Assembly (NCBI GenBank): GCA_026709625.1
Contig: JAPOSR010000044.1
Span: forward strand, 186 to 64,185
DNA length: 64,000 bases
Direction: 5' to 3'
Source: Chloroflexota bacterium
GTDB taxonomy: Bacteria > Chloroflexota > Anaerolineae > Aggregatilineales > Phototrophicaceae
Shown here one piece after another: positions 1,004 through 59,175 of this stretch. How positions within the stretch are numbered: the first letter of the stretch is position 1; every line of letters begins with the position of its first letter. The notes beneath the pieces were generated by a model, which had not been told where the DNA came from, did not search any database, and was given only the letters and a program-made list of their open reading frames with translations. Both the position numbers and the translations under genes were made by a program.

Positions 1004-1020
1004 CGCCTATTCCTTCACAA

Positions 1021-1071
1021 AGTCCCTCCCTCATTTTTGGGGGAAGGATTTAGGGTGGGGGTATCCCTCAC
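1021..1071 (+). repeat. Dispersed hairpin + G-tract repeat, copy A
   Basis: agtCCCTCCCTCAtttttGGGGGAAGGatttaGGGTGGGGGtatccctcac. Aligns by eye with copies at 5997-6043, 57411-61 and, inverted, 55808-49. Lies 18 nt upstream of the methyltransferase ATG. Confidence 0.7.
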
Positions 1072-5882: not shown

Positions 5883-5943
5883 CCATTGGCGATTGGGAGT
5901 GGCGAATCTGCTGGATGCGCGTTGCTTTGCCCCCCCAAAAAAT

Positions 5944-5967
5944 CCCTCCCTCAACAATGAGGGAGGG
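5944..5967. repeat. Perfect 10-bp-stem hairpin related to the dispersed repeat core
   Basis: CCCTCCCTCA acaa TGAGGGAGGG. Confidence 0.7.
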
Positions 5968-5996
5968 GCTACCATGCTGCGGAGGCGCTGGCAAAA

Positions 5997-6043
5997 CCCC
6001 CTTCCCTCGTTCTGGGGGCAAGGGGCCGGGGGATGGGGGCTTG
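5997..6043 (+). repeat. Dispersed hairpin + G-tract repeat, copy B
   Basis: cccccttccctcgttctGGGGGcaaGGGGccGGGGGatGGGGGcttg. Four G-runs of 4 or more. Confidence 0.65.
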
Positions 6044-17290: not shown

Positions 17291-17896
17291 ATGAATTTCG
17301 ACACAAACGTTTCTCTGGAACTCGTCTTGACAGTGTTGGCGATTTTGGGCGCGGTCTGGCGCATACAGCATGTGCTGGAGGCGCGGATAGACGATTTGCG
17401 CAAGGAACTCAAAGCCGACAATGGTGCCTTGCGTGAACAAATGCAGGCTGGCGACACCGCCTTGCGCCACGAAATCAGCAATTTGCGTGAGGAGATGCAG
17501 GCTGGCGACACCGCGCTGCGTGAGGAGATGCTAGCTGGACACGCAGCCTTGCGTGAGGAGATGCAGGCTGGACACGCAGCCTTGCGTGAGGAGATGCTAG
17601 CTGGACACGCAGCCTTGCGTGAGGATATGCAGGCTGGCGACACCGCGCTGCGTGAGGAGATGCAGACTGGACACGCAGCCTTGCGCGAGGATATGCAGGC
17701 TGGCGACACCGCGCTGCGCGAGGATATGCAGACTGGACACGCAGCCTTGCGTGAAGAAATGCTAGCTGGACACGCGGCAATTCGCGCAGACATGCGCCGT
17801 ATAGAAGATAAAGTAGACGACAATACTCAGCGCCTGGCGCGCCTCGAGGGCATCGTTCTCGCGCGTGAAGGCATGGTCGGGACCATCGTCGAGTAA
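17291..17896 (+). CDS. N-terminally membrane-anchored protein made of 11-residue (hendecad) repeats
   Basis: TM helix LELVLTVLAILGAVW, then ~11 units of ALRE(E/D)M(Q/L)(A/T)G(H/D)(A/T), then a C-terminal RIEDKVDDNTQRLARLEG. Confidence 0.7.
   Translation: MNFDTNVSLELVLTVLAILGAVWRIQHVLEARIDDLRKELKADNGALREQMQAGDTALRHEISNLREEMQAGDTALREEMLAGHAALREEMQAGHAALREEMLAGHAALREDMQAGDTALREEMQTGHAALREDMQAGDTALREDMQTGHAALREEMLAGHAAIRADMRRIEDKVDDNTQRLARLEGIVLAREGMVGTIVE
17426..17809 (+). repeat. In-frame 33-bp tandem repeat array (~11 units)
   Basis: Repeating gccttgcgtgaggagatgc(a/t)(g/a)gctgg(a/c)cac(g/c)c(a/g) units are visible directly in lines 17461-17760. They encode the ALREEMQAGHA units. Confidence 0.9.
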
Positions 17897-27605: not shown

Positions 27606-28934
27606 ATGATGTCGTCCAGAAAATTGCGCCTCACGATTTTGCTGTGCCTGCTGACCACGCTGGCAACCGGCGCAAGCTATGCCGAAGACCGCTGCGACTT
27701 CGCCGAAGACACTGTGCGGCTGGGCGCTGTTGCGCCGCTTTCCGCGCCTGGCTCTGTGACCGGCGGCATCGGCATGCAATGGGGATTCGAGCAGGCCATC
27801 GCCGATATCAACGCGGATTGCGGCATCCAGATCGATGGCGCGAATCATCGCCTGGATATTGTCATCGCCGATTCGGAAGGCGTGTCGGAATATGGGCAGG
27901 CGGTTGTTGAGCGGCTGATCTTGCAAGACAGGGTGCAGGGCATCGTTGGCTTTTATCACAGCGCAGTCGGGCTGGCGACCATGGCCATGGCGCAGCGCTA
28001 TCGCATACCCACGATTTATGCCCACCCCCGCAACGACAACATCAGCGCCGCCGGTTATGTCGAATTTGAGGGCAAGCCGCCGCGCCGCAGCCAGGGCGTC
28101 GACTATGTCTTCCGCATCTCGCCGCCCAGTTCCATCGTCGGCAAGACCGTGACCGACTGGCTGGTCTCGCTGGGCGTGGCTGATGTGGTGATTATCCTGG
28201 AAAACACCGACTATGGGCACCCTGCCGCCGCCGCCGAACGAGCGCACCTGGAACAAGCCGGCGTTCATGTCGAGCAGCTGGAAATCGAGCTGGGCACCGA
28301 AGACTTCGTGCCCATCCTCAGCCGCATCCAGGCGCGTCCCGAGCCGCCCGATGCCATTCGCCTGCTGGTGAGTGGCGAAACTGCGTATAACCTCACGCAG
28401 CAAATGGTCGAGCTGGGCTTGGCGCCAACAGCCGACACCATCTGCGTCACCAATCACCTGGCTTTCCAGTCGACGCAATACTGGAACAATGTCCCCGATG
28501 GCAACTTCTGCGCATTTGACCGCGTCGGCACGGTGCCCAGCCTGTACACCGACCTGGCAGCCAAACTGGACCAGCGCTACCAGGAAGACTTCGGCGATAC
28601 CCTGGTCAGCTTCGCCATGGAAGCCTATGACAGCGTTTGGCTCATGGCCGACGCGATGCAGCGAGCCGGCAGCTATGCCGATGCAGACGCTGTCGTCGCG
28701 GCGCTGGAGCTGGCAGACATTGAGCTTTCGCAGGGGCGTTATTATTTTGAATATGGCAGCCACAACCCCGACCTGCCCGCCGATGCGCCCGCTTATATGT
28801 GGCATCAATGGCCCGTGCCGGTCGTGACCGTGATGCAATACTTCGCAGCCGGGCAAAGCAGCCTGGATGCCGCTGTCGTCTGGCCAGCGATCTATCAGAC
28901 GCATGGCGCCTCGTATTTCGAGCCAGACAACTGA
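27606..28934 (+). CDS. Periplasmic-binding-protein type 1 (Leu/Ile/Val-binding-like) ABC substrate-binding protein, copy 1
   Basis: Signal peptide MMSSRKLRLTILLCLLTTLATGASYA, then VRLGAVAPLSAPGS..GFYHSAVG... Paralogous to 29025-30383 along the whole length. Confidence 0.75.
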   Translation: MMSSRKLRLTILLCLLTTLATGASYAEDRCDFAEDTVRLGAVAPLSAPGSVTGGIGMQWGFEQAIADINADCGIQIDGANHRLDIVIADSEGVSEYGQAVVERLILQDRVQGIVGFYHSAVGLATMAMAQRYRIPTIYAHPRNDNISAAGYVEFEGKPPRRSQGVDYVFRISPPSSIVGKTVTDWLVSLGVADVVIILENTDYGHPAAAAERAHLEQAGVHVEQLEIELGTEDFVPILSRIQARPEPPDAIRLLVSGETAYNLTQQMVELGLAPTADTICVTNHLAFQSTQYWNNVPDGNFCAFDRVGTVPSLYTDLAAKLDQRYQEDFGDTLVSFAMEAYDSVWLMADAMQRAGSYADADAVVAALELADIELSQGRYYFEYGSHNPDLPADAPAYMWHQWPVPVVTVMQYFAAGQSSLDAAVVWPAIYQTHGASYFEPDN

Positions 28935-29024
28935 AGCCAATTTCCGCTTCTGCCAGCCGGCGCAAAGCCAAGTTGCGCGCTTTGGTTGACAGCCCAGTCC
29001 AATATCGCTTACACTTGTCTATAG

Positions 29025-30383
29025 ATGTCCATTGAAAAGAATGTGGAGACTCTTATCCGCTACATTACCGCAGTATTGATAGCAACGCTTGTTCTGTTTT
29101 CGCTCGCAGCGCCAGCCACAATCGCCGACTCGCAGTGCGAATTCGCCGAAGAAGTCATCCGTCTCGGTGGCATCGCGCCGCTTTCACCGCCCGGAGCAAC
29201 TGGCGCCGGCGTGATTATCGACTGGTCTTATCAACAGGCGGCCGCCGATATCAACGCGCAATGCGGGGTCGATATCGCTGGCGTCAACCATCGCGTAGAG
29301 GTGCTGACTGGCGACAGCGAAGGCATCTCTGAACGCGGGCAGGCGCTGGCTGAGCGCTGGATCTTTGAAGATGGCGTGCATGGCGTTGTCGGTGGCTACC
29401 ATAGCGCGGTGGCGCTGGCAATGATGATCGTGACGCAGGAAAATGCCGTGCCCACCCTCTTCGCCGGGCCTTGGAATGACAACATCACCGCCAATGGCAT
29501 CGGCGAATTTGAAGGCAGAGCGCCGCGCAGCGAAGGTGGCCTCGACTATATCTTTCGCACTTCACCGGCCAACTCGATGGTGGCGGCGGTGGCGGCGAAC
29601 TGGTTCATTGATCTCGGCTTGGATGATGTCATCATCATGACCGAGAACACCGATTATGGCATCCCGGCCGCAGCCGATGAAACCGTCCTGTTGGAAGCGG
29701 CTGGCGTGACAGTCGAGCAGTTCAGCTTCGAGCTGGGCACTGAAGACTTTGTGCCGGTGCTCAACCGCGTCCTGGCGCGCCGCGAACCGCCGGATGCCAT
29801 TCGCGTGCTGGTTACGGGCGAGACCGGCTTCAACCTGGTGCAGCAGATGGCTGAGCTGGGTATCGCGCCCAGCGCCGATACCATCTGCGTCGCCGAAAGC
29901 TTCGCCGGCGATTCAACGCAGTTTTGGGCGGCTGTGCCCGATGGCAACTATTGCGCTTTCACCCGCGTCGGCGCCACGCCCGCGCTCTTTGGCGATATCG
30001 CGCATGATGTCAACGCCCGCTATACAGCCGAGTGGGGCGGCGTCGCCCCCAGCTATTCGCTCGAGCCATATGACAGCGTGTGGCTGATGGCCGCGGCCAT
30101 GGATGCCGCCGACAGCTTCAACGACGCCGATGCCATTGTCGCCGCGCTGGAGACCATCGACATCGAGCTGGCGCAAGGACGCTATTACTTCGAGTATGGC
30201 AGCCACAATCCAGACTTGCCCGAAGGCGAGCCCACCTATCTGTGGCATCAATGGCCCGACCCGATTGTGACAGTCGTGCAATACTTCGAGCAAGATCAGA
30301 GCGCGCTCGATGCGGCGGTAATCTATCCGCCGGTCTATCAGACGCATGGCGCTGCCTATATCCAGCCAGGCACGATGCCATGA
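29025..30383 (+). CDS. Periplasmic-binding-protein type 1 ABC substrate-binding protein, copy 2
   Basis: N-terminal TM/signal then IRLGGIAPLSPPGA..GGYHSAVA... Shares four conserved Cys and the C-terminal YYFEYGSHNPDLP..WHQWP..YQTHGA block with copy 1. Confidence 0.75.
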   Translation: MSIEKNVETLIRYITAVLIATLVLFSLAAPATIADSQCEFAEEVIRLGGIAPLSPPGATGAGVIIDWSYQQAAADINAQCGVDIAGVNHRVEVLTGDSEGISERGQALAERWIFEDGVHGVVGGYHSAVALAMMIVTQENAVPTLFAGPWNDNITANGIGEFEGRAPRSEGGLDYIFRTSPANSMVAAVAANWFIDLGLDDVIIMTENTDYGIPAAADETVLLEAAGVTVEQFSFELGTEDFVPVLNRVLARREPPDAIRVLVTGETGFNLVQQMAELGIAPSADTICVAESFAGDSTQFWAAVPDGNYCAFTRVGATPALFGDIAHDVNARYTAEWGGVAPSYSLEPYDSVWLMAAAMDAADSFNDADAIVAALETIDIELAQGRYYFEYGSHNPDLPEGEPTYLWHQWPDPIVTVVQYFEQDQSALDAAVIYPPVYQTHGAAYIQPGTMP

Positions 30384-36543: not shown

Positions 36544-37782
36544 TCATCGCAGCTGAAGCTTCACTCGCAAGTATTCCATACCGCGATTGCCCTTGATGCG
36601 ATTGCAAGAGCCGCACAGCAGCTGCAAGTTCTCGCTATGGTCGGTGCCGCCTTTCGAGCGCGGGATGATGTGGTCGACTTCCAAGCGCTGACTCTGAAAA
36701 TGCTCGCCGCAGCCTGCGCAGTTGCCCGCCTGCTCGCCATACAGCGCCTTTTTGTGGCTGGCGGGGCGCGGCAGCCCGCCCAGGTCGGTGCGCCGAGGCA
36801 TATCGGCGCGGTGGATGGGATTGGAAAACAAACCCAGTTCTTCGCGCAGGCGCAGTTTGGTCAGCTCGGTGGCTTTGCCCGCCACATCAATCCCCACCCA
36901 CTGCCGCCCCATGCCCTGCGCGGCGATGCAGGTCGTGGCGCAGCCGCAGAAGGGGTCAAGCACCAGAGCGCCTTCATCGCTGCCCGCTGCGATTAAGCGG
37001 CGATAAAGCGCGAGAGGCTTCTGTGTGGGGTAACCTGTGCGCTCCTTGTCCGAGTTATTCAGTTTTGGAATATCCCACACGTCGTCCAGGGGAATGCCAT
37101 AGCGCATCGCTTCATCCAAATACCTGCGTGCCCGCCGCCCGCCGCCGCCATCGGACAATACATACTCCCGTCCATCCTCATCGACGCGGACCTTCTGTTT
37201 TCGTACTTTGATATATTCCTCTTTGCTTTCCCAGGTTCTTGCTGGCGGATTAAATACTGCGCCATCTGCCTTGGAATAAAACAATATGACATCATGGCGG
37301 CGCTCGATATGGGCTTTCAGCTGTTTGTTCCAGCCGGAATAATGCCAGATAATCTCATTGCGAAAGTTGCCGCGTCCGAAAATCGCGTCCATGACCAGCT
37401 TCAAGTAGTGGCTCATGGTGGGGTCGCAATGCAGGAACAGGCTGCCGGTCGGCTTGAGGATGCGGCGCATCTCCAGCAGTCTGACCGCCATATAGACCAG
37501 GTAGGATTTGTCGCTGTCGGTCATAGCGGCGAGCAGAACGCGATGCAGCCCGGCGTGCTTGCTCTCGATGAGGTTGATCCATTCGGCATCGATGTCCGAC
37601 AGAGTCCAGGTATCTTTGAATTCAGCGCCGGCGGCTTGCGAGCCAATCGGGGCGGCGTAATTTGCGTTGGAATTGAAAGGGGGATCGAGGCAAATTAAAT
37701 CGACGCACTCGGAATTCGTGCCGCGCATGATGTCGAGGCAGTCGCCTGTCCACACCGTTTGATTTCGGAAGTTCGGCTTCAT
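36544..37782 (-). CDS. DNA methyltransferase (beta-class N6A/N4C) fused to a C-terminal HNH nuclease
   Basis: VDLICLDPPFNSN, TGSLFLHCDPTMSHYLK, ERTGYPTQKPLALYRRLI, VLDPFCGCATT. C-terminus reads CAGCGEHF..LEVDHIIPRSKGGTDHSENLQLLCGSCNRIKGN (CxxC..HH..N..CxxC). Confidence 0.9.
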   Translation of the reverse strand: MKPNFRNQTVWTGDCLDIMRGTNSECVDLICLDPPFNSNANYAAPIGSQAAGAEFKDTWTLSDIDAEWINLIESKHAGLHRVLLAAMTDSDKSYLVYMAVRLLEMRRILKPTGSLFLHCDPTMSHYLKLVMDAIFGRGNFRNEIIWHYSGWNKQLKAHIERRHDVILFYSKADGAVFNPPARTWESKEEYIKVRKQKVRVDEDGREYVLSDGGGGRRARRYLDEAMRYGIPLDDVWDIPKLNNSDKERTGYPTQKPLALYRRLIAAGSDEGALVLDPFCGCATTCIAAQGMGRQWVGIDVAGKATELTKLRLREELGLFSNPIHRADMPRRTDLGGLPRPASHKKALYGEQAGNCAGCGEHFQSQRLEVDHIIPRSKGGTDHSENLQLLCGSCNRIKGNRGMEYLRVKLQLR

Positions 37783-47682: not shown

Positions 47683-48570
47683 TCAGTCTCTAATAATACG
47701 AAACGGCGCGTTAACTGCTTCCCAAGCTCGAACCTCATCAAACAACGATGTCTGAACAAAGTAATCAAATTCGTAAGCTGTTCGCAGACTAGCCGACAGT
47801 GTTGTACTAGCAAGCGCTAGGCGAGTGGTATCCCTCAAGGGTACGCCAAATTCGCGCTCGAATAGAGATGGAAAAATTAGTGCAATGATATAAACAGCGT
47901 CATGTCCGTTACATAGCTTTATGCTGCCATTAGGAAATTTATTTCGAAGCGCCTTCACTTCTGCAATTAGCCGGTCACTCTGCAACTCTCGTATGTTTTC
48001 GCAAAGTCGCCTAGCTGCCCAGCTTCTGTCAAACTCCAGAGTCTCCACATCAATAACATCCTTGAGATTAAACTCCTTGAAGTTGATGCCATAATTGTGT
48101 TTAGCGTTGAGACAGCGAAAGAGTCCTATCTCCTCAGCCAATTTTAGAGCTTCATGTCTTAGTTTTTCTGCAAACGCATGTACTTCTTCAATCTCCACTT
48201 GTGTTAAATGATTTCGTAATATCTTCGCCAGTGCTGGCGAGTCAAGCAACATGATTTCACTATCTGGGCATGTATTATCGTATAATAAATTCTGTCTATC
48301 CAGCTCATCTGATCGGAGAATAAGATTATAGTCCGCATCCACAATTGCGGCCAAACCTCGAATATCGCGGAACATAGATGAATCGAGCAAAGATAACAGA
48401 TTCTGTTTTCCGTTTACTCGTTCCAATCTGCAATTGTTTTCAACTGTGAAATCCCACCATAGAGCTTCATCAGTACGACCTTCTACTAGAACAAATGCTA
48501 GCGCTTTGTTCCGCATTCGAGACATGAAGATCAGATTGAATAAGTAATGTGGAGTCTTTCTCGGACCCAT
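47683..48570 (-). CDS. DUF4435/TOPRIM-like protein, AriB-like partner of the upstream ATPase
   Basis: N-terminal ..ALAFVLVEGRTDEALWWDF.. then AAIVDADYN (acidic TOPRIM-type motifs). AT-rich. The Met at 48570 abuts the ATPase stop (48573). Confidence 0.65.
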   Translation of the reverse strand: MGPRKTPHYLFNLIFMSRMRNKALAFVLVEGRTDEALWWDFTVENNCRLERVNGKQNLLSLLDSSMFRDIRGLAAIVDADYNLILRSDELDRQNLLYDNTCPDSEIMLLDSPALAKILRNHLTQVEIEEVHAFAEKLRHEALKLAEEIGLFRCLNAKHNYGINFKEFNLKDVIDVETLEFDRSWAARRLCENIRELQSDRLIAEVKALRNKFPNGSIKLCNGHDAVYIIALIFPSLFEREFGVPLRDTTRLALASTTLSASLRTAYEFDYFVQTSLFDEVRAWEAVNAPFRIIRD

Positions 48571-48572
48571 TC

Positions 48573-49949
48573 CTAGCACACACCTTCTGGGTACCGAAGC
48601 CCTACTACCCACTCCCATTTGTCGTCGACCAACGTGGGCGAATGAGTAGCGATAAGGAGGTCGAAATGTCTAAATGCAATAACATCTCTTAGGTCGTCCA
48701 GGAATCTTTCCTGCCAATCGACGTGCAGCGAAAGTTCGGGCTCGTCAATCATTATTAGAGAATTATGCTCAACATGAAACAGCAGTTGATAGATCAGAAT
48801 TAGTTCATGCTGCTCTCCGGAGGATAAACTGGTCTTTGGTATCTCATTACCTTTGTTGTCCTTAAATATAAAACCCTTACGCTTGTCGATCTCAAGTGTC
48901 TTGCACATGAATCGATTATTGATGATGGCTATGAGAATTTCGAGTTGGCGGGATATTGCGTCGACCTTTGAGAGTTTCGCTTCTATGTCTTGCACATAGA
49001 TTGATAGTACATCTGTGAGATTATTCTGCGTAGTGTCGTCCAGCTTTGGAATCTCAGGAACATCCTTATCTTCAAATAATCCAAGCTTAATTAGCTTTGC
49101 CGTCTTCTTCTCAAGTTCGTCAAGTTTCTCCTGCAGATTATCTTGAGCAATTAGCTCTGTTCCATCTGATTCAATTAATCGTTTTGGAAAGCTACGATCA
49201 CGTATTTGCGATTCTTGTCCGTATTCGGCCATCGCGTTACCGATTTCTTTGGCAATTTCCTCAGAATATCTTACGACCGTTGCTTTTGGCGCTGACGAAG
49301 CTCGTCTCCTGCGCGATGACAGATAAGCAGAAAAGCCTAACGGTCGAGTGGGTTCGGGATCCTGAAGCCTTTGCGCCTGAATTAAACGAGTCCGGGTACT
49401 CCTCTTTATATCCTTCATCCACTTAGGTTCATTGTAGAGATATACCTGAAAGTCATATGCCGCTATGACTTCTTCAATGGTCAATACATCTCCGGTTAGG
49501 ATATTCTCCCATCTTGTACTTCCTATGGATGACAGCTCTGGCTTTGACTCTGCCAGTTCTCTGACGCGCGCCAATCCCTGGCGAGTGGGTTTGGGGTTGT
49601 AAGTTTGCTCATTTGAACCATTGCTATCGAAATATCGAAGCACCAGAGACTCTTCAATTGGATCACTGTCTCGATCTCCCTCTGCTGCATCCCTTGTTTC
49701 TAATTCGGTATAGTTTCCTTCAATACAAACTCGCTCCCCACTTGATAATTCAACGCTAAACGACCCAAAGGGTATGCTCAAGAACACTCCGTAATTTGAC
49801 GTAAACAAACCATTGATCATCTTCATCAGAACGGTCTTGCCGATTCCATTTGGTCCATGAATGATTGATATCCGAGAGTCCTGATTCAGTCGAATCTCAT
49901 GGTCAAACATGTCAAACAACTTCGTTACTGTAACACTACGGATGCGCAT
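48573..49949 (-). CDS. ABC/SMC-like AAA ATPase (AAA_15/AAA_21 type), AriA-like
   Basis: Walker A IHGPNGIGKT, ~280-aa helical insert, signature LSSGEQ, Walker B LIMIDEPELSLH, H-loop IATHSP. AT-rich. Confidence 0.8.
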   Translation of the reverse strand: MRIRSVTVTKLFDMFDHEIRLNQDSRISIIHGPNGIGKTVLMKMINGLFTSNYGVFLSIPFGSFSVELSSGERVCIEGNYTELETRDAAEGDRDSDPIEESLVLRYFDSNGSNEQTYNPKPTRQGLARVRELAESKPELSSIGSTRWENILTGDVLTIEEVIAAYDFQVYLYNEPKWMKDIKRSTRTRLIQAQRLQDPEPTRPLGFSAYLSSRRRRASSAPKATVVRYSEEIAKEIGNAMAEYGQESQIRDRSFPKRLIESDGTELIAQDNLQEKLDELEKKTAKLIKLGLFEDKDVPEIPKLDDTTQNNLTDVLSIYVQDIEAKLSKVDAISRQLEILIAIINNRFMCKTLEIDKRKGFIFKDNKGNEIPKTSLSSGEQHELILIYQLLFHVEHNSLIMIDEPELSLHVDWQERFLDDLRDVIAFRHFDLLIATHSPTLVDDKWEWVVGLRYPEGVC

Positions 49950-52530: not shown

Positions 52531-52766
52531 GGCGCAGCCTTTCTGCTTGTGGGCGGCTCCGCCAGTCTAGCGATATCGCCCACGCAATTCAATGCGACAG
52601 CCAGGTAGCGAAGATTGTTGCCGGGCGAGGCGCTAACTCGCCAGCAAATCTGAAGCCCTTTGTGCAAATTGCATGAGTTGCTGCGGATTTTCTTTGCGAA
52701 AAGCGTATACAGATTCATCCTCGCAGGTCTCGCTTAGCGGTTTCTAGCCACAATGGAGGTAATCTT

Positions 52767-53342
52767 GTGAAAACGCTGTTGGCGATCCTATCGGTATGCA
52801 TCCTTGCGCTTTCGGGAGGCATCCCCGTTTTTGGGGATGACATTTCTGAATGGGACGCTGCGTTGGAAGCCCTTGGTTTTCAACGGGTATCGAGCAGTTC
52901 TGTCCCCAGTAAGATTCAGGCTTCGTCCAGTTTGTGGCCCAGTACGCTGGGAGAAATCTTATCGCTCATTGAGTCAAGATCATCTACCGCATCCCAGCAA
53001 GTCAGTGGCGCTACATTGTACTCGGCAAACCGTAGCTATGAATGCGCTAAGTTGGTGGGTGGTCTCGGGCACGGGTGGTTCAGGCATTACGTTGACGGTG
53101 TCATAGACAGACGCCACGGCAAGCAGATTTTCGCTAGCTCAAGCAACAACCGCTGGGCTCATACGGGTCTTACATTGGGTACGCAGTTATCCAACGTAAG
53201 TACAAGTAGCCGTATCTCCTCAGACGCGCGAACACTGACAATGCGAAGTTCTTGGGTAGTATCCGTCTATGTGCCGACGCCTTGGGGAGATTACTACTTT
53301 CATTCGGAGTCCGTGAGCAACAGATGCTCCAAGAGCCCATGA
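52767..53342 (+). CDS. Secreted hypothetical protein (cassette copy 1)
   Basis: GTG start with a GGAGG RBS. Signal peptide MKTLLAILSVCILALSGG. Ser-rich 190-aa body with no motif I recognise. Lower GC than the flanks. Confidence 0.5.
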   Translation: MKTLLAILSVCILALSGGIPVFGDDISEWDAALEALGFQRVSSSSVPSKIQASSSLWPSTLGEILSLIESRSSTASQQVSGATLYSANRSYECAKLVGGLGHGWFRHYVDGVIDRRHGKQIFASSSNNRWAHTGLTLGTQLSNVSTSSRISSDARTLTMRSSWVVSVYVPTPWGDYYFHSESVSNRCSKSP

Positions 53343-53566
53343 TGCTGGGAATCGAACAGTTGGGGATCAACCCCACTCACATGGCGCTCACCGCGCTCTG
53401 GATCGCGTCCTATTGCTTTGCTGTTGCCTGGTTGATTCGCTGCGCGCGAGCCGGCCTTGTCAAGCGGACTTGGCTATGGGGACTTGTCATTTTGTTTGTC
53501 CCAGCGGGTCAATTCGCCACGATGCTTTGGCTTTTTTCTATGAGTCAGAAAGCCAAAGCGAAGTAA
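53339..53566 (+). CDS. Small two-helix membrane protein (PLDc_N-like W..LVILFVP motif)
   Basis: ATGA overlap with the upstream stop. MMLGIEQLG..ALTALWIASYCFAVAWLI..TWLWGLVILFVPAGQFATMLWLF..KAKAK. Confidence 0.45.
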   Translation: MMLGIEQLGINPTHMALTALWIASYCFAVAWLIRCARAGLVKRTWLWGLVILFVPAGQFATMLWLFSMSQKAKAK

Positions 53567-53788
53567 CGACCAGACGCAAAGTCAACTCAAGCCCCCTGCC
53601 CAGCTTGGCGGGGACCTCACAGCATCGGGAAACAAGCGGGAATTTGTGCATAATGCATGAATATACTTTGAATATCTATGTTTGTGTATCACAATAAATA
53701 TCGTTGTGGCTGAGGGAAAAGGAGGAATAAGAGTAGCAGTTTGCGACATGCGCGTTTCGCGGTTTAATTCCACTATGGAGGCAATCTC

Positions 53789-54388
53789 GTGAAGACGCTG
53801 TTGGCATTTATCCTGACGATCGTAGTTGCATCTGTTGGTGTTTCTCCTAACTTTGGGGAGAGGTACAGAGAGCCAAGCACTTTCTGCTCAAGAAATGACG
53901 ATTTTGTCTTCGATGGGCTTTCAGCCTGCCTCTGCTAGAGATCATGCCGAAGCTACCGCCGCCGGAATATCATTTTTGCAAGTAAACAGTATAGCGGGAG
54001 CGGCTGCCGTACTTAATCAGTCGCAGAGCGCTTACTCACCAATTGCGCAGCAAACCATAGCAAAAGCTTCCATCGGCAGTTATCAGACATGGGAGTCGTG
54101 TACCAGAAATGCTTGGACATGGTGGGTCAACGCCGAGGCGCGTGTAACCATAAAACCCAAGGAAGTGATAAGAGGTACGGCGCTGTCCATGAAAAGAGAT
54201 TAACATTAGCTGGGTTTCACCCCGCAACTTGGCTTCATAACCCAAGCCTGTGGACAGAACATCGTAATCACCATCGTGTCCCGCGGCTAAACAATCGTAC
54301 ATATGTGAAAGTGGGGATCGTCATTGCAGGGAACGAGTTGGTATACACCTATGGGCATGTCAGTTGGTCCTGCGACTTCACCGCATAA
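53789..54388 (+). pseudogene. Divergent paralog of 52767-53342 broken by two frameshifts (cassette copy 2)
   Basis: Same RBS and leader (GTGAAgACGCTGTTGGC; MKTLLAFILTIVVA). The body continues in ORF 53826-54203, then ORF 54089-54388. Total span of 600 nt compares with 576 nt in copy 1. Confidence 0.45.
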
Positions 54389-54402
54389 CTCGGGAGCTTG
54401 CT

Positions 54403-54546
54403 ATGTTCGATATACCGTTCCTCATTCTCTCAACTCTCGTCTCGGTTGGAGTGACGGCTTTCATTGTGATCAGTTTATACTACATCATCCGCTTGCTGAA
54501 AGAGCTTGTGCAGTATCTGCATAAGCTGAACAACGAAGATGACTAG
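54403..54546 (+). CDS. Small single-helix membrane protein
   Basis: MFDIPFLILSTLVSVGVTAFIVISLYYIIRLLKEL.. with GGGAG 8 nt upstream. Same position as 53339-53566 in copy 1. Confidence 0.4.
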   Translation: MFDIPFLILSTLVSVGVTAFIVISLYYIIRLLKELVQYLHKLNNEDD

Positions 54547-54602
54547 GCGAAGTCAATCCCAGCGAGCCCCTGTCAAATGCGGCGAGGGCTTAGCTTTCTC
54601 GG

Positions 54603-55802
54603 CTAGCGAATTTCTTCCGCCGCCCAGTGGTCGCCCATGGCGCGCCGCCCGGCTGCCAGCCCCGGCCCCTCGCTGACCTGGCGGACACAATCATCGCGGT
54701 CCAGCGCCGCCTCGCGCAGCGCCACGCCCAACCCGGGTCCAGCCGGCACATCGAGACAGCCAGCGCGGACGCTCGGCGACAAATCGGTCAAGGCGGGAAA
54801 GATTTCTTTGTAGAAGGCTCGCGACGACTCGACATAATATAGATTGGGGATATGCGCGCCCAGGTGCATGCAAGCCGCGTGACAGATTGGCCCCGCCACA
54901 TTGTGCAACACGAGCGGCAGGCCAAAAGTCTCGGCCAGCGCGGCGATCTTGCGCGTCTCGCCGATGCCGCCATTCCATACCGCATCGGTCATCACGATCT
55001 GCGACACATGTTTTTCCAGCCATTCGCGCAGCTGCCAGCGCGTCATCAGCAGCTCCGAGCCGACGATGGGAATGTTGATTGACTGCGACAGCGCCTTGAT
55101 CTCGTCGGGATAGACTGGCGACATAACATCTTCCAGGAAGAGGATGTCGAAGGGCTCCAGCGCACGGGCGATGCGCTCCATGCAAGCGCGATTCCAGCGA
55201 AAATGAAACTCCAGCCCGATTTCCATATCTGCGCCGACCGCCGCGCGGATTTGTTTGATGGGCAGCAGGCCGCGTTCGATCTCGGCGCTGCTGATGCGCT
55301 GTCCAAAGCTGTCCTCGCTGAATAGGTCGAAGGGCCAAATCTTCATCGCGCTGATTCCGTCCGCCAGCAAGCTCTTCGCCAGCGCGCCGGCATCATCGTG
55401 CCAGGCTTCATAGTCGCGAACAGCGCCAAAGCTGAGGCAGGTGTTGTAGGTAGGGATTCGCTCGCGAGTCTTGCCGCCCAGCAGATGAAAAAGCGGCGCG
55501 CCATATTGCTTGCCCATGATGTCCCACAGCGCCACTTCGAAGGCAGAAAGCGCGCGCGTCTCTGCCCCCGCATAGCCGTGATACATGATGTTATCCATGA
55601 TGAAGCGCCACAAGCCTTCAATATCCAGCGGGTCTTGCCCGAGCGCGAGCGGCGCGATGGTGCCATGCAAAGCGGCTTTGGCAGCGGGGATTTTGTCGAC
55701 TGTCTCGCCCAAGCCAACGATGCCGCTGTCGGTGTGTACGCGGACGACCAGCAAACGCGGATATTCGCGCCATTGCAGGGTTTCGATAGCTGTGATTTTC
55801 AT
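54603..55802 (-). CDS. Enolase-superfamily sugar-acid dehydratase (D-galactonate/L-fuconate dehydratase-like)
   Basis: MKITAIETL.., GLGET.., [30 protein letters not shown]. Start at 55802. Confidence 0.85.
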
Positions 55803-55807
55803 GATAT

Positions 55808-55849
55808 GCCCCCACCCCAAGCCCCTCCCCCAAGATGAGGAAGGGGCTT
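55808..55849 (-). repeat. Dispersed hairpin + G-tract repeat, copy C (inverted relative to copy D)
   Basis: gcccccaccccaagcccctcccccaagatgaggaaggggctt. Hand alignment to the reverse complement of 57411-57452 gives 38 of 42 identical positions. Confidence 0.75.
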
Positions 55850-55858
55850 ATTTGCGAT

Positions 55859-57347
55859 TCAAGCTGAGATTCTGCCGCGGCGTTTGCGCCCATACTGCGG
55901 AGGCAAATGAAGAGGCTTGTCCCTCAGTAAATCATCGACGCTATAGCCTTGAATCACTGGGTATTCATTGCCAAAACCACCATCCCAAGTCTCACGGCTG
56001 CGCTGGTTTTCAACCGTGCCCATCTGCTCCTTAAAACATACCATCACTCCCGCGACTGCCTCGACGCGGCGCACCGTCTCGCTCAAGGCTTTCACATCCT
56101 CCGCTCGCACATTCCCGCCCTTGACCTGCACCACGATCGATTCTTCATAGACGACGCCTTTGCGGACAACGGGCAGGATGATCTCACCATCAATCCCGCC
56201 ATCCGGACCCTTGTCGCCCGGCTGTTTGCGCAGGCCCATCTTGTTGACGCCGATGCGCCCGCAGACCCATTTTTCAAACTCGAAGGGGCTTTCACGCGCC
56301 AATTGCCTGGCTGTCCGATCGTTATAGGGCAGTCCGACAATGTCGATAGCCGACGCATGCACCCGCGCGGGATAATTGGAAAGGATGCGCTGCCGCATCA
56401 GCTCGGTCGAGAAACGCGAAATGTCAATGCCGATCCATTGGCGATTTAGTTGCTCAGCGGCGTGCACGGTCGTGCCGCAGCCACAGAAGGGGTCGAGCAC
56501 AATGTCGCCCTCATTGGATGAGGCGCGGATGATGCGCTCCAAAAGGGCAAGTGGCTTTTGCGTGGGATAGCCGAGCCGTTCTTTGGACACAGGAGAAAGG
56601 ATAGGAATGTACCACCAGTCACCAACTGCTATTTCTGCCGAAATAGCGCGCTTTATTGGTCTGCCCATATCGTCCTTCGCGGTCACAGTTTTCCCGAACG
56701 AGTCCTTTGCACTAACATACTGAGACGGATTAGGGTTATCGTTCGGCACCATGATAGGAATAAAATTCCATTCTTTCGTATTGGCATACCAGAGAATAAT
56801 GTCATGCAGGCGTGGCAACTGTCGCTTGCTCGCTGTCCATCTCTTATAGCACCACACTATTTCATTTCTGAAGTTCTGCTTTTCAAAAATCGCGTCCATT
56901 ACCACTTTCAAATAATGACTCGCAGTCGGGTCGCAATGCAGGTAAATGCTGCCCGTCGGCTTCAACACGCGCTTCATCGCCAGCAGGCGTTCCGACATAT
57001 TCAGCAGGTAAGATGCCAGGCTGTTGGTTCTTTTTCTCCTACCCCCCCCCGTACATGTGTTCTATACGCTGCGCCACCTCGACGATCATCGCCAGCGTCG
57101 GGCGCGGATCGGGCAGTTTCTTGAACTCCGCCAGTCTCGTATCATCATCGGCTGTCCATGTCCAGGTATCCACAAAGGCTTCGACAGGCTCATAGCCTTT
57201 GTCCTTGCCTTTGAATGGCAGGTTGTATTTGGCATTGGAATTGAACGGCGGGTCAAGGTAAATGAGGTCAACCGATTCGGGTTGGATGTAGTCGCGCAGG
57301 ATATTGAGGCAATCGCCTCGGTAGAGCTTGCGTAGCGGGTTTGACAT
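55859..57347 (-). pseudogene. DNA methyltransferase (beta-class) fused to an Mrr-like PD-(D/E)xK domain, split by a frameshift in a G9 run
   Basis: ORF 57039-57347 (..VDLIYLDPPFNSN..MYGGG*) and ORF 55859-56998 (..TGSIYLHCDPTASHYLK..ERLGYPTQKPL..VLDPFCGCGTT..FEFEKWV..GPDGGIDGEI..VVQVKGG). Removing one G restores a ~496-aa frame. Confidence 0.85.
57042..57050. repeat. C9 (G9 on the coding strand) homopolymer at the frameshift site
   Basis: Line 57041 reads a ccccccccc g. The reading frames of the two ORFs differ by exactly one nucleotide across it. Confidence 0.9.
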
Positions 57348-57410
57348 TTTTGTTTTCCCTTTTTTAGAAGTTCAATGAAGGGCGAGTCAACGCTTCGCCC
57401 CTACTTCTAT

Positions 57411-57461
57411 AAGCCCCTCCCTCATTTTGGGAGAGGGGTTTGGGGTGGGGGCTTGCCTCAC
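57411..57461 (+). repeat. Dispersed hairpin + G-tract repeat, copy D
   Basis: aagCCCCTCCCTCAttttGGGAGAGGGGtttGGGGTGGGGGcttgcctcac. Lies 64 nt upstream of the methyltransferase ATG. Its tail overlaps the FAH stop codon. Confidence 0.75.
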
Positions 57462-58363
57462 ACCCCAATCACCCAATTTTTCAAGCTGCCGATGCCATCG
57501 ATGCCGATGCGCACTTCATCGCCGGGCAGCAGCGTAAATTCAGCCGGCGGCACAATGCCTGTGCCCGTCAGCAGAAAGACGCCGTCTGGATAGCTGTTGC
57601 TGCGCCCCAGATAGTCGATGAGTTCGGCGATGCCGCGTTTGATCTGGTCGGTGGAGATCGCGCCGCTGAAGACCGCTTCGCCCGCGCGCGCGATATCCAG
57701 GCGGATGGTGGCAGCCAGCCACTGGTCGGACGGCGCTAGCAAGATGCCCGGACCCAAGGCGCAAGAAGCGGCATACAGCTTGGCTTGCGGCAGGTAGAGC
57801 GGGTTTGCGCCTTCGATATCGCGGCTGCTCATGTCGTTGCCGATTGTGAAACCCAGCAATTCCATAGCGGGATTGATGGCCAAGCCCAACTCCGGCTCAG
57901 GCACATTCCAGGCTGAATCGCTGCGGATGCCGACATGACCGAGGTGCCCGACTGTGTTTTTGGCGCTGGCTTTATAAAAGATTTCTGGGCGCGGCGCATC
58001 GTAAACGCGAGCATAGACATCGCCGCCATCGCTGGCTTCTTCCTGGCGGGCTTCGCGGCTGCGCATGTAGGTGACGCCGGCCGCCCACACTTCCTGCTCG
58101 TCCAGCGGCGGCAGCCAATGCGGGAGCGTGGACGCGGGCGCGTTGTCAAGCTGGCTGGCGGGGAAGCGACGCAGGGCATCAGCGGCGGCGCGCTCGACGG
58201 CAGCGATGACACCAGCCACATTATTAAGCGAAGCGCGGAAAAGAGCCGCCAGACTCGGGAAGCAGTCGCTGATATCATGCACGGTCTCGCCGCGCAACAC
58301 GCCCAAGCCAGCGCCCGTGCCCGGTTGATGATAGCGAATGAGGATTGGCGCGTCTGTCATCAT
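57458..58363 (-). CDS. Fumarylacetoacetate hydrolase (FAH) family protein
   Basis: ..GFTIGNDMSSRDIEG..PLYLPQAKLY..LLTGTGIVP..LLPGDEVRIGIDGIG.L.N. Start MMTDAP at 58363. Confidence 0.85.
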   Translation of the reverse strand: MMTDAPILIRYHQPGTGAGLGVLRGETVHDISDCFPSLAALFRASLNNVAGVIAAVERAAADALRRFPASQLDNAPASTLPHWLPPLDEQEVWAAGVTYMRSREARQEEASDGGDVYARVYDAPRPEIFYKASAKNTVGHLGHVGIRSDSAWNVPEPELGLAINPAMELLGFTIGNDMSSRDIEGANPLYLPQAKLYAASCALGPGILLAPSDQWLAATIRLDIARAGEAVFSGAISTDQIKRGIAELIDYLGRSNSYPDGVFLLTGTGIVPPAEFTLLPGDEVRIGIDGIGSLKNWVIGV

Positions 58364-58395: not shown

Positions 58396-59175
58396 TTAAT
58401 CCTGTGGCTGCTCGCCTTTGACGCTGAGGCCGCCGTCGACTGTATAATTTGCGCCTGTCACAAAGCTGGCTTCGTCCGATGCCAGAAACAGGCAAACATT
58501 CGCCACCTCGGCGATTGTGCCGACGCGCCCGATCGGGTGCATGCGGTCAAAGTCCTGGCGCAGCGAGTCGGGATCGCTCTGCCCAGCCAAAAAGTCGCGC
58601 AGCATGGGCGAGTCGATGGTGCCCGGCGAGACGCTGTTGACGCGGATGCCGCGCGCCGCATAATCGGTGGACATGGCTCGCGTCAGCGCGATTAATCCGC
58701 CTTTGGTCATGCTATAGGCGGCGATGCCCGGCAAGCCCAGCAGGCCGGTTACGCTGGCGATGTGGATGATGCTGCCCCTGCCCAGCGCCAGCATGCCCGG
58801 GATGACGCCGCGGCTGACGAGATAAGCCCCGCGCAGATTGACAGCTACGCAGCGGTCGAAGTCGTCGGGGCTGGTCCTATGAATCGCGCCGACTGGCATT
58901 ACAGCGGCGTTGTTGACCAGCACATCGACAGCCCCAAAACGGTCGCGCAGCCGAGCCAATGCCGAGTTCACCTGCGCTGGCTGGCTGATGTCGGCGGCTA
59001 GGGCAATGGCTTCGCCACCGCTGGAAAGCGCTTTATCAGCCAGCGCCTGACAGGCGGCCCCGTCCAAATCCAAGATGCCGACACGCGCGCCTTCTGCAGC
59101 GAAGCGCAGGGCGATGCCGCGCCCAATCCCCCGCGCCGCGCCAGTGACCAGCGCAACCCTGTCTTGCAATCGCAA
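58396..59175 (-). CDS. Short-chain dehydrogenase/reductase (SDR)
   Basis: [31 protein letters not shown] (S..YxxxK), SPGTIDSPM. Confidence 0.9.

What the first reader, a model, noticed from the sequence alone, without database searches (positions are those of the whole stretch)
55808..57461. Methyltransferase cassette bracketed by ~42-nt inverted repeats and wedged into a sugar-acid operon
The segment holding only the methyltransferase-Mrr gene is flanked by 55808-55849 and 57411-57452. These are reverse complements of each other at 38 of 42 positions in my hand alignment.

The cassette separates an enolase-superfamily dehydratase (54603-55802) from FAH hydrolase (57458-58363) and SDR (58396-59175). 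Together those three genes form the classic non-phosphorylative deoxy-sugar-acid pathway set (dehydratase, dehydrogenase, diketo-hydrolase). All are on the same strand.

The left repeat nearly touches the dehydratase start codon and the right repeat overlaps the FAH stop. This looks like a repeat-bounded, transposase-less mobile or recombination-captured module, which is not a described vehicle for restriction-modification genes as far as I know.
Basis: partly seen in the sequence, partly recalled or inferred. Interest (0 to 1): 0.7.

Follow-up and report, generated by a model that had tools for sequence, protein, structure and literature searches.

The report
Dispersed hairpin repeats flank resident methyltransferase
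The inverted repeat is real, but its arms are two copies of a common intergenic hairpin repeat sitting beside a DNA methyltransferase-nuclease gene that relatives carry at the same spot without the repeat pair, so the repeats are not a vehicle that moved it.

Summary
The 44-nt inverted repeat (55808-55851 / 57409-57452, 91% complementary) is confirmed. It is not a cassette boundary.

- **The arms.** Each arm is one copy of a ~45-nt REP-like unit: a hairpin plus a G-tract tail. The window holds five copies, and an exact 19-mer of the unit occurs in at least 120 public metagenome stretches. Units often form tight tails-outward doublets.
- **The gene.** Relatives of this Chloroflexota MAG carry orthologous methyltransferase-Mrr genes (66-76% identical) in the same FAH|dehydratase slot. 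Most lack the FAH-side arm, and one lacks both.
- **No transposon marks.** There is no target-site duplication and no second copy of the cassette.

What is real:
- In outgroups FAH abuts the dehydratase, so the gene is an old insert.
- The slot turns over restriction/defence genes among relatives: MTase-HNH, a Type IIG enzyme, Mrr-type and FRG-domain proteins, or nothing.
- The window's allele shows about 3× excess synonymous divergence and a swapped recognition region, which points to allele exchange.
- The gene is frameshifted at a G9 run, the only G/C homopolymer of 8 or more in 64 kb. Near-identical alleles elsewhere occur both intact and truncated at this tract, so phase variation is likely.

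Ordinary kinds, moderately interesting combination.

The parts
55805..55852 (-). Left arm. One REP-like unit read on the minus strand: hairpin AAGCCCCTTCC/GGGGGAGGGGCTT, then the tail GGGGTGGGGGC, which ends 5 nt before the dehydratase ATG. It carries four G-tracts.
   Evidence: hairpin -29.1 kcal/mol, z = -3.3 on the minus strand; profile hit E = 4e-13; G-quadruplex-type motif at 55809-55831. A unit lies at the same position and orientation in L087, L010, L032 and L092.
57408..57455 (+). Right arm. One REP-like unit read on the plus strand, in the 110-nt FAH-to-methyltransferase spacer. The closest relatives lack it; their spacer is 18 nt.
   Evidence: (E = 1e-13). An exact 30-nt copy of its G-rich half lies about 7 kb away at L004:1952-1981.
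55859..57347 (-). Methyltransferase-Mrr fusion gene: a beta-class N6_N4 DNA methyltransferase with a DPPF motif, plus a C-terminal Mrr_cat PD-(D/E)XK nuclease domain. It is frameshifted into a 102-aa ORF and a 379-aa ORF. The restored protein is 495 aa.
   Evidence: PF01555 5e-43, PF04471 6e-06; MTase_II 1e-62; intact 470-540-aa homologs; M.RsrI, DpnA, CcrM; both catalytic motifs conserved; dN/dS 0.12-0.14.
57042..57050 (-). G9 homopolymer on the coding strand that causes the frameshift; G8 would be in frame. Candidate contingency (phase-variation) tract.
   Evidence: the only G/C run of 8 or more in 64 kb; L087: G9, in frame; L091: G13, in frame; P0123 intact versus P0043 truncated, 99% identical; P0122 is an N-terminal fragment ending in GGG*; G9 in all the identical public assemblies.
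57380..57401 (-). Second, unique hairpin (GGGGCGAAGCGTTGACTCGCCC) in the enlarged FAH-to-methyltransferase spacer. It is not part of the repeat family.
   Evidence: single occurrence in the window.
54603..55802 (-). Enolase-superfamily sugar-acid dehydratase (downstream flank of the slot).
   Evidence: galactonate/arabinonate-dehydratase-like, below the equivalog cut-offs; orthologs 69-93% identical.
57458..58363 (-). FAH-family hydrolase (upstream flank of the slot).
58396..59175 (-). SDR dehydrogenase of the same operon.
1017..1065 (+). Another unit of the family. It sits 14 nt upstream of the start of methyltransferase paralog 1 (1-1003, minus strand) and 3 nt after the stop of the preceding ORF.
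   Evidence: D20; E = 9e-14.
5926..6042 (.). Tails-outward inverted doublet of two units, 5926-5972(-) and 5993-6042(+), 20 nt apart, between an fn3-domain gene and an ABC transporter gene. The geometry matches the arms around the methyltransferase, but nothing lies between the units.
   Evidence: (I2). The same doublet type occurs in L032, L091, L110, L126, L163 and L165.

Best explanation
The inverted repeat consists of two independently placed, oppositely oriented copies of a dispersed REP/REPIN-like intergenic element. Each copy is about 45 nt: a 10-12-bp C/T-rich : G/A-rich hairpin followed by GGGGTGGGGG-type G-tracts. The copies lie in the two short spacers on either side of a methyltransferase-Mrr gene that has long occupied a fixed slot between the FAH hydrolase and the dehydratase in this Chloroflexota clade.

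**Shown:**
- The gene's orthologs occupy the same slot in other genomes, without the repeat pair.
- The dehydratase-side unit is positionally shared with relatives. The FAH-side unit is absent from the closest relatives.
- Units appear and disappear at orthologous spacers independently of the gene.

**Inferred:**
- The methyltransferase entered an originally contiguous FAH-dehydratase junction in an ancestor of the clade.
- The slot has since behaved as a small restriction/defence turnover site. Content is replaced by recombination through the conserved flanks: allele exchange and recognition-domain swap in the window lineage, and other restriction or defence genes, or loss, in relatives.
- The gene encodes a single-chain N6-adenine methyltransferase plus Mrr-type nuclease. 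Expression is switched by slippage of a poly-G tract placed upstream of most of the protein. The window's population is in the OFF (G9) state.
For: **Family nature of the arms**
- Five full units lie in three intergenic regions of the window.
- The consensus AAGCCCCTCCCTC-loop-GGGGGAGGGGTTTGGGGTGGGGG is almost invariant across these stretches.
- The hairpin is supported by compensatory changes at 4 of 10 pairs.
- Units avoid long open frames: median covering frame 520 nt versus 1146 nt at random positions.
- Tails-outward doublets spaced 12-78 nt recur.

**Residency of the gene**
- Six of the seven closest intact homologs I could place lie after FAH (or after FAH plus a conserved 465-aa gene), on the same strand. 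Five of them are followed directly by the dehydratase; L091 has lost it.
- On a dehydratase NJ tree they are spread over the whole inner clade, including its basal member L093.
- In L087-L091 and L089-L090 the methyltransferase dS equals that of the flanks.

**Arms are not required**
- L087 and L091 have an 18-nt FAH-to-methyltransferase spacer. L089, L090 and L092 have no unit upstream of the gene. L093 has none at all.

**Units are independent of the gene**
- L017, L010 and L032 have units at these positions without this methyltransferase.
- L091 has a doublet between the DinB and KduI genes, where the window's genes overlap.
- There is no target-site duplication.

**Slot turnover**
- L010 carries MTase-HNH on the opposite strand. 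L021 carries a Type IIG enzyme (1.5e-181). L019 carries an Mrr-type protein (PDC-S02, 1e-92). L009 carries an FRG-domain protein (PDC-S15).
- L021 and L009 retain remnants of the displaced 465-aa gene.

**Allele exchange**
- Window versus L087: dS 1.1-1.3 in the methyltransferase against 0.33-0.40 in the flanks.
- The recognition region (aa 161-262) is 38% identical, while the rest is 84-86%.

**Poly-G switching**.
Against: - The segment with excess divergence between the window and L087 starts and ends near the two spacers that hold the arms, at about 120-nt resolution. A role for the spacers or units as exchange break-points cannot be excluded.
- A third unit lies just upstream of another methyltransferase paralog (1017-1065). 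This gives a weak unit-methyltransferase association within this one window.
- Ancestral presence rests on a single-gene NJ tree without support values. Repeated insertion of related methyltransferases into the same slot would fit equally well.
- I could not count units across the whole genome, nor look for a cognate transposase.
- Poly-G length differences between assemblies could partly be sequencing or assembly errors. Some relatives come from low-coverage long-read contigs.
Confidence: 0.8

Rival explanations
1. First reader's reading, sharpened. The two arms are the ends of a non-autonomous mobile unit, a REPIN- or MITE-like doublet loaded with cargo. A trans-acting transposase acting on the hairpins moved or exchanged the methyltransferase as a cassette. 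The tight doublets would be the empty form.
For: - The tails-outward geometry of the arms is the same as that of the empty doublets at 5926-6042, L032, L091, L110, L126 and L163.
- Two other tails-outward pairs 1.4-1.7 kb apart exist in metagenome contigs L112 and L145.
- The excess-divergence segment between the window and L087 is bounded by the two spacers.
- A unit also lies upstream of methyltransferase paralog 1.
Against: - Orthologs at the same junction lack one or both arms.
- No target-site duplication is present.
- No second copy of the cassette was found. The only off-slot close homolog (L086) has no units.
- The kb-spaced pairs in L112, L145 and L164 bracket unrelated genes, not methyltransferases.
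- Other cargo genes at this junction have no bracketing inverted repeat.
- Methyltransferase paralog 2 has no unit on either side.
- An inverted pair around one gene is expected about 10% of the time at this unit density.
Confidence: 0.05
2. The units are kept at these two spacers for a function in the operon's expression, not by chance insertion. As RNA or DNA structures (a hairpin that competes with a G-quadruplex), they would insulate the sugar-acid genes from the inserted gene. Possible roles are stabilising or processing the mRNA, and supplying a G-rich ribosome-binding region 5-14 nt before the dehydratase ATG.
For: - A unit in the same orientation (hairpin, then G tail, then ATG) lies before the dehydratase in the window, L087, L010, L032 and L092. 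It is degenerate in L089 and L090.
- The hairpin shows compensatory substitutions.
- The unit sequence is conserved across genomes whose intergenic DNA is otherwise unalignable.
- Four of the five canonical four-G-tract motifs in the window lie in units.
Against: - L093 and all loci with direct FAH-dehydratase adjacency do without any unit.
- The FAH-side unit is missing in the closest relatives.
- There is no Rfam match and no terminator-like T-run.
- Nothing here measures expression. G-quadruplex formation is only a sequence-pattern inference.
Confidence: 0.2
3. The frameshift is not a switch. The methyltransferase in this population is simply a recently inactivated pseudogene, or the run length is a systematic homopolymer error.
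For: - All public assemblies of this population are 100% identical over the operon, including the out-of-frame G9 tract, so no in-frame variant was seen for this allele.
- Loss of the gene has happened repeatedly in relatives.
Against: - dN/dS of 0.12-0.14 and intact catalytic motifs argue against old decay.
- The tract is the only long G/C homopolymer in 64 kb.
- The tract is conserved, with different lengths, in the two closest relatives.
- A 99%-identical allele pair exists as intact and truncated forms, and an N-terminal fragment ends at the tract.
- Four independent assemblies from different samples make a random error unlikely.
Confidence: 0.3

Closest known systems
REP elements and REPIN doublets (repetitive extragenic palindromes; Bertels & Rainey 2011, PMC3116915; Di Nocera et al. 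2013, PMC3733652)
   Same: - Short (about 45 nt) imperfect palindromes that are dispersed and intergenic.
- They are conserved within a lineage and often occur as two inverted copies separated by a short spacer.
- They show presence/absence differences at orthologous spacers between close relatives.
   Different: - There is no consistent GTAG or CGTC end tag. Most copies start TAAG or GAAG.
- A conserved G-tract tail gives a four-G-tract motif that overlaps the 3' hairpin arm.
- The host is a Chloroflexota (Anaerolineae-type) lineage.
- No RAYT transposase could be looked for.
Phase-variable restriction-modification methyltransferases with homopolymeric tracts (contingency loci of Helicobacter, Campylobacter, Neisseria, Haemophilus; e.g. 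PMC2823697, PMC5953494)
   Same: - A long poly-G run lies inside the coding region of a restriction-type methyltransferase.
- Tract length differs among close alleles by non-multiples of three, giving intact and truncated forms.
- The recognition domain is variable.
   Different: - The enzyme is a beta-class (PF01555) methyltransferase fused to an Mrr-type nuclease, not a Type III Mod or a Type I/IIG enzyme.
- The host is an uncultured environmental Chloroflexota.
- Switching within a population has not been shown.
Defence/restriction hotspots between conserved core genes
   Same: Different restriction-modification or candidate defence genes (methyltransferase-Mrr, MTase-HNH, Type IIG, PDC-S02 Mrr-type, PDC-S15 FRG), or nothing, occupy one junction between the same conserved flanking genes in related genomes. 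This statement about hotspots rests on my own knowledge of the field.
   Different: - The slot lies inside a catabolic operon and holds a single gene.
- No integrase, tRNA or mobile-element hallmarks are present.
- One occupant family appears to have been resident across the clade.
MITEs, composite transposons and integron cassettes
   Same: A single promoter-less gene lies between two about 44-nt inverted sequences that can fold as hairpins.
   Different: - No target-site duplication is present.
- The arms are separable from the gene in relatives.
- No further copies of the module were found.
- There are two inverted units rather than one attC.
- No integrase or transposase was seen nearby.
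Single-chain restriction-modification enzymes (Type IIC/IIG) and E. coli Mrr (Type IV)
   Same: - A methyltransferase and a PD-(D/E)XK nuclease domain lie on one polypeptide.
- The Mrr-type motif D-GGIDGE...VVQVK is conserved.
   Different: - Domain order and methyltransferase class differ from MmeI-like Type IIG enzymes (beta class, nuclease at the C-terminus).
- No solved structure covers the fusion.
- The best PDB matches cover only the methyltransferase part: M.RsrI, DpnA, CcrM, M.MboIIA.

Membership tests
REP / REPIN elements | Short imperfect palindrome able to form a stem-loop | tested here: met
   Folding gives -29 kcal/mol. The consensus hairpin has 10 pairs, 4 of them with compensatory changes, among 24 diverse units.
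REP / REPIN elements | Many dispersed, extragenic copies in a genome | tested here: inconclusive
   Five units lie in 64 kb, plus one partial copy just outside. At least 120 metagenome stretches carry an exact 19-mer. Units avoid long open frames. The whole-genome copy number of this MAG could not be counted.
REP / REPIN elements | Inverted doublets separated by a short spacer (REPIN form) | tested here: met
   Window 5926-6042 (20-nt spacer). L032 7232-7345. L091 5186-5353. L110, L126, L163 and L165 have spacers of 12-53 nt. All are tails-outward.
REP / REPIN elements | Conserved GTAG or CGTC tetranucleotide tag at one end (Di Nocera et al. 2013) | tested here: not met
   Only the copy at 5926-5972 begins GTAG. 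Other copies begin TAAG, GAAG or AAAG.
REP / REPIN elements | Cognate RAYT (Y1 HUH transposase) in the genome, usually flanked by REPs | not testable with these tools
   Only 64 kb plus flanks of this genome are available.
TIR-bounded transposable element / MITE with cargo | Terminal inverted repeats | tested here: met
   44 nt, 91% complementary.
TIR-bounded transposable element / MITE with cargo | Target-site duplication flanking the ends | tested here: not met
   No shared direct word of 4 nt or more in the 15 nt outside or inside the arms.
TIR-bounded transposable element / MITE with cargo | Element present or absent as a unit (arms plus cargo together), or present at more than one locus | tested here: not met
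   Orthologous cargo sits at the same site without one or both arms (L087, L091, L093). Arms occur at these positions without the cargo (L017, L010, L032). The off-slot homolog L086 has no arms.
Simple-sequence contingency (phase-variable) gene | Long homopolymer or short tandem repeat within the reading frame or promoter | tested here: met
   G9 at codons 100-102. It is the only G/C run of 8 or more in the window.
Simple-sequence contingency (phase-variable) gene | Tract length varies among closely related alleles, producing in-frame and out-of-frame states | tested here: met
   Window G9 (out of frame), L087 G9 (in frame), L091 G13 (in frame). P0123 (intact) versus P0043 (truncated) are 99% identical. 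P0122 and the window's 102-aa ORF both end GGG*. Caveat: homopolymer assembly errors.
Simple-sequence contingency (phase-variable) gene | Reversible switching within one population | not testable with these tools
   This needs raw reads. All assemblies of this population are 100% identical over the operon, including the G9 tract.
Beta-class N6/N4 DNA methyltransferase (PF01555) fused to Mrr_cat nuclease | Methyltransferase motifs (DPPF/Y; FxGxG AdoMet site) and the Mrr D...(Q/E)xK motif are present and conserved | tested here: met
   PF01555 at 5e-43 and PF04471 at 6e-06. DPPF, DPFCGCGTT, DGGIDGE and VVQVKGG are invariant or nearly so in 8 orthologs. Enzymatic activities were not tested.

The most novel reading that the evidence does not exclude
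The tails-outward doublet of this hairpin/G-tract unit is a recombination landing pad or vehicle. Single restriction-modification genes would be loaded, exchanged or lost between the two units. On this reading the methyltransferase cassette is a loaded doublet and the tight doublets are its empty form. That would be a transposase-less, REPIN-like carrier for restriction genes in Chloroflexota.
Probability: 0.05. Interest if true: 0.7.

Novelty: new member of a known kind. Interest (0 to 1): 0.35.

Why it matters
The proposed new vehicle for restriction-modification genes is not there, which removes a false lead. Three things remain.

- **A repeat family.** A very conserved REP-like family in Anaerolineae-type Chloroflexota pairs a hairpin with an overlapping four-G-tract motif. 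I found no description of it in the papers searched.
- **A fixed slot.** A single-gene slot inside a sugar-acid operon has turned over restriction and defence genes across a clade, while one methyltransferase-nuclease family stayed resident.
- **A likely switch.** Sequence evidence suggests this family is switched on and off by a poly-G tract and swaps its recognition domain. If read-level data confirm it, contingency-locus control of DNA methylation would extend from a few host-adapted pathogens to uncultured environmental bacteria.

Tried and rejected
- **Known RNA family.** Rfam search of 55000-58000 at E up to 1 gave only a chance snoRNA hit.
- **Terminators and promoters.** No terminator-like site at either arm and no sigma-70-like promoter in the cassette.
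- **Target-site duplications.** None at the outer or inner edges.
- **Inverted repeats around other cargo.** None bracket the other cargo genes at the same junction in nine relatives.
- **Remnants of displaced genes.** No trace of the 465-aa or 670-aa genes in the window.
- **Recent duplication of the three methyltransferases.** Rejected: they are 41-46% identical. Paralog 2 has no flanking unit.
- **A general fast synonymous rate.** Rejected as the explanation for the high dS: in L087-L091 and L089-L090 the methyltransferase dS equals that of the flanks.
- **An old pseudogene.** Rejected by dN/dS.
- **Look-ups that failed.**
  - The 3' flank of methyltransferase paralog 1, beyond the window start.
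  - The context of a 60%-identical homolog.
- **Independent comparison from public assemblies.** All assemblies of the locus are 100% identical to the window.
Full report
**Observation.** The inverted repeat exists as described. The arms are 55808-55851 and 57409-57452, 44 nt and 91% complementary, the longest inverted pair in the window. A 22-nt part of the arm has no chance matches in shuffled sequence. Between the arms lies only a methyltransferase gene. It is on the minus strand, like the flanking MR_MLE dehydratase, FAA_hydrolase and SDR genes.

- The right arm stops 5 nt short of the FAH stop codon.
- The methyltransferase is split into a 102-aa and a 379-aa ORF by a frameshift at a G9 run.
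- Each arm is itself a hairpin followed by a G-rich tail, so the arms also match as direct repeats.

**What the arms are.** A profile built from the copies finds five full units in the window: 1017-1065(+), 5926-5972(-), 5993-6042(+), 55805-55852(-) and 57408-57455(+). An exact 30-nt partial copy lies just beyond the window end. The pair at 5926-6042 is an inverted doublet with tails outward and only 20 nt between the units. This is the geometry of the arms around the methyltransferase, but empty.

- In 85 of those 120 stretches the full hairpin-plus-tail unit is present, with an almost invariant consensus AAGCCCCTCCCTC-loop-GGGGGAGGGGTTTGGGGTGGGGG.
- Four of ten hairpin pairs show compensatory changes among diverse copies.
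- Units avoid long open frames relative to random positions.
- Neighbouring units are mostly tails-outward, including tight doublets spaced 12-53 nt.
- No Rfam family matches, and the arms are not terminator-like.

This is the behaviour of REP/REPIN-type repeats (PMC3116915, PMC3733652). The usual GTAG/CGTC tag is absent, and a cognate transposase could not be sought. Four of the five canonical four-G-tract motifs in the window lie in these units and overlap the 3' hairpin arm. G-quadruplex formation is only an inference from that pattern.

**Is the methyltransferase a newly wedged cassette?** The window comes from a Chloroflexota MAG. Identical copies of the locus are in ENA, NCBI (GCA_026708885.1) and Logan assemblies. 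Record titles of relatives read Phototrophicaceae, Aggregatilineales or Caldilineales.

In more distant orthologous loci FAH is followed directly by the dehydratase, after 8-100 nt (L008, L031, L015, L016, L025, L028, L033, L038). So the junction was originally contiguous, and the methyltransferase is an insert in the evolutionary sense.

The closest intact homologs of the frame-restored protein are 66-76% identical. I could place seven of them:
- **Same slot, same strand.**
  - L087 and L093: FAH, methyltransferase, dehydratase.
  - L089, L090 and L092: FAH, a conserved 465-aa gene, methyltransferase, dehydratase.
  - L091: FAH, methyltransferase, with the dehydratase lost.
- **Elsewhere.** Only L086.

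On a dehydratase NJ tree these genomes are spread across the inner clade, including its basal branch.

L087 is the closest relative: dehydratase 93%, FAH 86% and SDR 86% identical. Its methyltransferase is intact. Its FAH-to-methyltransferase spacer is 18 nt, with no room for an arm. A unit of the family lies before its dehydratase ATG. L091 has the same 18-nt spacer. L093 has no unit on either side.

Conversely, units sit right after the FAH stop in L017, and right before the dehydratase ATG in L010 and L032, which lack this methyltransferase. L091 has a doublet between DinB and KduI genes that overlap in the window. There is no target-site duplication at the arm edges. Given four unit sites among about 58 intergenic gaps, an inverted pair around one gene has roughly a 10% chance.

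**What the slot does.** Among relatives of similar distance the FAH|dehydratase junction holds different things:
- the conserved 465-aa gene alone (L007, L012, L020, L032);
- nothing (L008, L031);
- an MTase-HNH fusion on the opposite strand (L010);
- a 970-aa Type IIG enzyme (L021; PADLOC 1.5e-181);
- an Mrr-type PDC-S02 protein plus a 668-aa unknown protein (L019);
- an FRG-domain PDC-S15 protein (L009).

L021 retains the first ~35 codons of the 465-aa gene, and L009 the last ~20 codons. There the newcomers replaced resident DNA. None of these cargo genes is bracketed by long inverted repeats.

In L087-L091 and L089-L090 the methyltransferase's synonymous divergence equals that of its flanks, so it was co-inherited. 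Between the window and L087 it is 1.1-1.3, against 0.33-0.40 for SDR, FAH and dehydratase. The step in identity falls at the FAH 3' end and at the dehydratase ATG. The recognition region (aa 161-262) is essentially unalignable, while the rest is 84-86% identical. GC3 of the methyltransferase is below that of its flanks in every genome.

I read this as allele exchange at a fixed slot by recombination, with the conserved flanks or spacers as substrates. This is inference. It is also the one point that leaves some room for the spacers, and hence the units, to take part.

**The gene itself.** The restored 495-aa protein is a beta-class amino-methyltransferase. It carries a DPPF motif and resembles M.RsrI, DpnA, CcrM and M.MboIIA. 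It is fused to an Mrr_cat PD-(D/E)XK domain whose DGGIDGE...VVQVK motif is invariant in eight orthologs. dN/dS against intact orthologs is 0.12-0.14, so this is not an old pseudogene.

The frameshift lies in a G9 run, the only G/C homopolymer of 8 or more in 64 kb. The tract is conserved with other lengths in the closest relatives: L087 G9 in frame, L091 G13 in frame. In the protein database:
- P0123 (502 aa, intact, ...QMDRGGGGGKRKR...) and P0043 (383 aa, starting just after the tract) are 99% identical.
- P0122 is a 102-aa N-terminal fragment ending GGG*, like the window's.
- P0024 and P0124 also start at the same methionine.

This is the sequence signature of a contingency tract, as known from phase-variable restriction methyltransferases in Helicobacter, Campylobacter and Neisseria (PMC2823697, PMC5953494). 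Homopolymer assembly error is a caveat for single contigs. For the window's allele, all the independent public assemblies carry the same G9 tract. Because the tract lies upstream of most of both domains, slippage would silence methylation and nuclease together. That last point is inference.

**Verdict.** The arms are two members of a dispersed REP/REPIN-like family. They lie beside a long-resident, probably phase-variable methyltransferase-Mrr gene, in a slot that turns over restriction and defence genes. Each ingredient belongs to a known kind; the combination and the host lineage are new instances. Interest is moderate (0.35). The most novel reading not excluded is that tails-outward doublets act as landing pads or carriers for single restriction genes. 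I give it about 5%.

Noticed in passing
window 1-1003 (-), 36544-37782 (-), 55859-57347 (-): Three beta-class (PF01555) DNA methyltransferases lie within 64 kb, each with a different partner. Paralog 1 is cut by the window start and has a large insertion in the methyltransferase domain. Paralog 2 is fused to an HNH nuclease. Paralog 3 is fused to Mrr. They are only 41-46% identical, so they are not recent duplicates.
   Followed up: partly
window 47683-49949 (-): A pair of adjacent genes (AAA_15/AAA_21 ATPase of 458 aa, and a DUF4435 protein) matches the PADLOC AriA (1.5e-25) and AriB (6e-13) models. This looks like a PARIS-like defence pair, about 5 kb from the operon.
   Followed up: partly
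window 52600-54550: A low-GC stretch (0.44-0.55, against about 0.62 around it) lies just downstream of the dehydratase. It holds small ORFs without Pfam or PADLOC hits, and a 53-nt direct repeat (52731-52783 versus 53753-53805, 81% identical) at the starts of two of them. The close relative L091 lacks this stretch together with the dehydratase.
   Followed up: partly
window 17418-17828: A tandem array of 33-nt repeats, with at least 9 in-register copies 62-88% identical to the reference copy. It probably encodes an 11-residue protein repeat (D1).
   Followed up: no
window 27690-30350: Two adjacent paralogous segments are offset by 1443 nt and 70-72% identical over at least 300 nt. They suggest a tandem gene duplication (D3, D4, D12, D13).
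   Followed up: no
L007, L012, L020, L032, L089, L090, L092 (between FAH and the dehydratase or methyltransferase): A conserved 465-aa protein without any Pfam, NCBIfam or PADLOC match is part of the operon in many relatives (75-85% identical). It is absent from the window, L087 and L093. L017 and L019 share a different 670-aa unknown protein at the same place.
   Followed up: partly
units at window 55809-55831, 57429-57451, 5930-5950, 6014-6039: The G-rich half of the repeat unit is a canonical four-G-tract (G-quadruplex-type) motif that overlaps the 3' arm of the hairpin. Four of the five such motifs in the whole window are in units. This suggests a hairpin versus quadruplex alternative.
   Followed up: partly
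L007:4651-4811, L020 and L032 spacers before the dehydratase: A different inverted-repeat element (TTTACCACCGAGTACACCGAG... arms, 43 nt, 81% complementary, 75 nt apart) lies in the spacer before the dehydratase in L007. Related TTTACCACCGAGGAGACCGAG-type sequence occurs in L020 and L032. This looks like a second small repeat family in these genomes.
   Followed up: no
L091:6353-8305: The close relative L091 carries a further PF01555 methyltransferase followed by a HinfI-family restriction endonuclease just after the KduI gene. In the window the PARIS-like pair lies there instead, which points to another variable defence spot.
   Followed up: no
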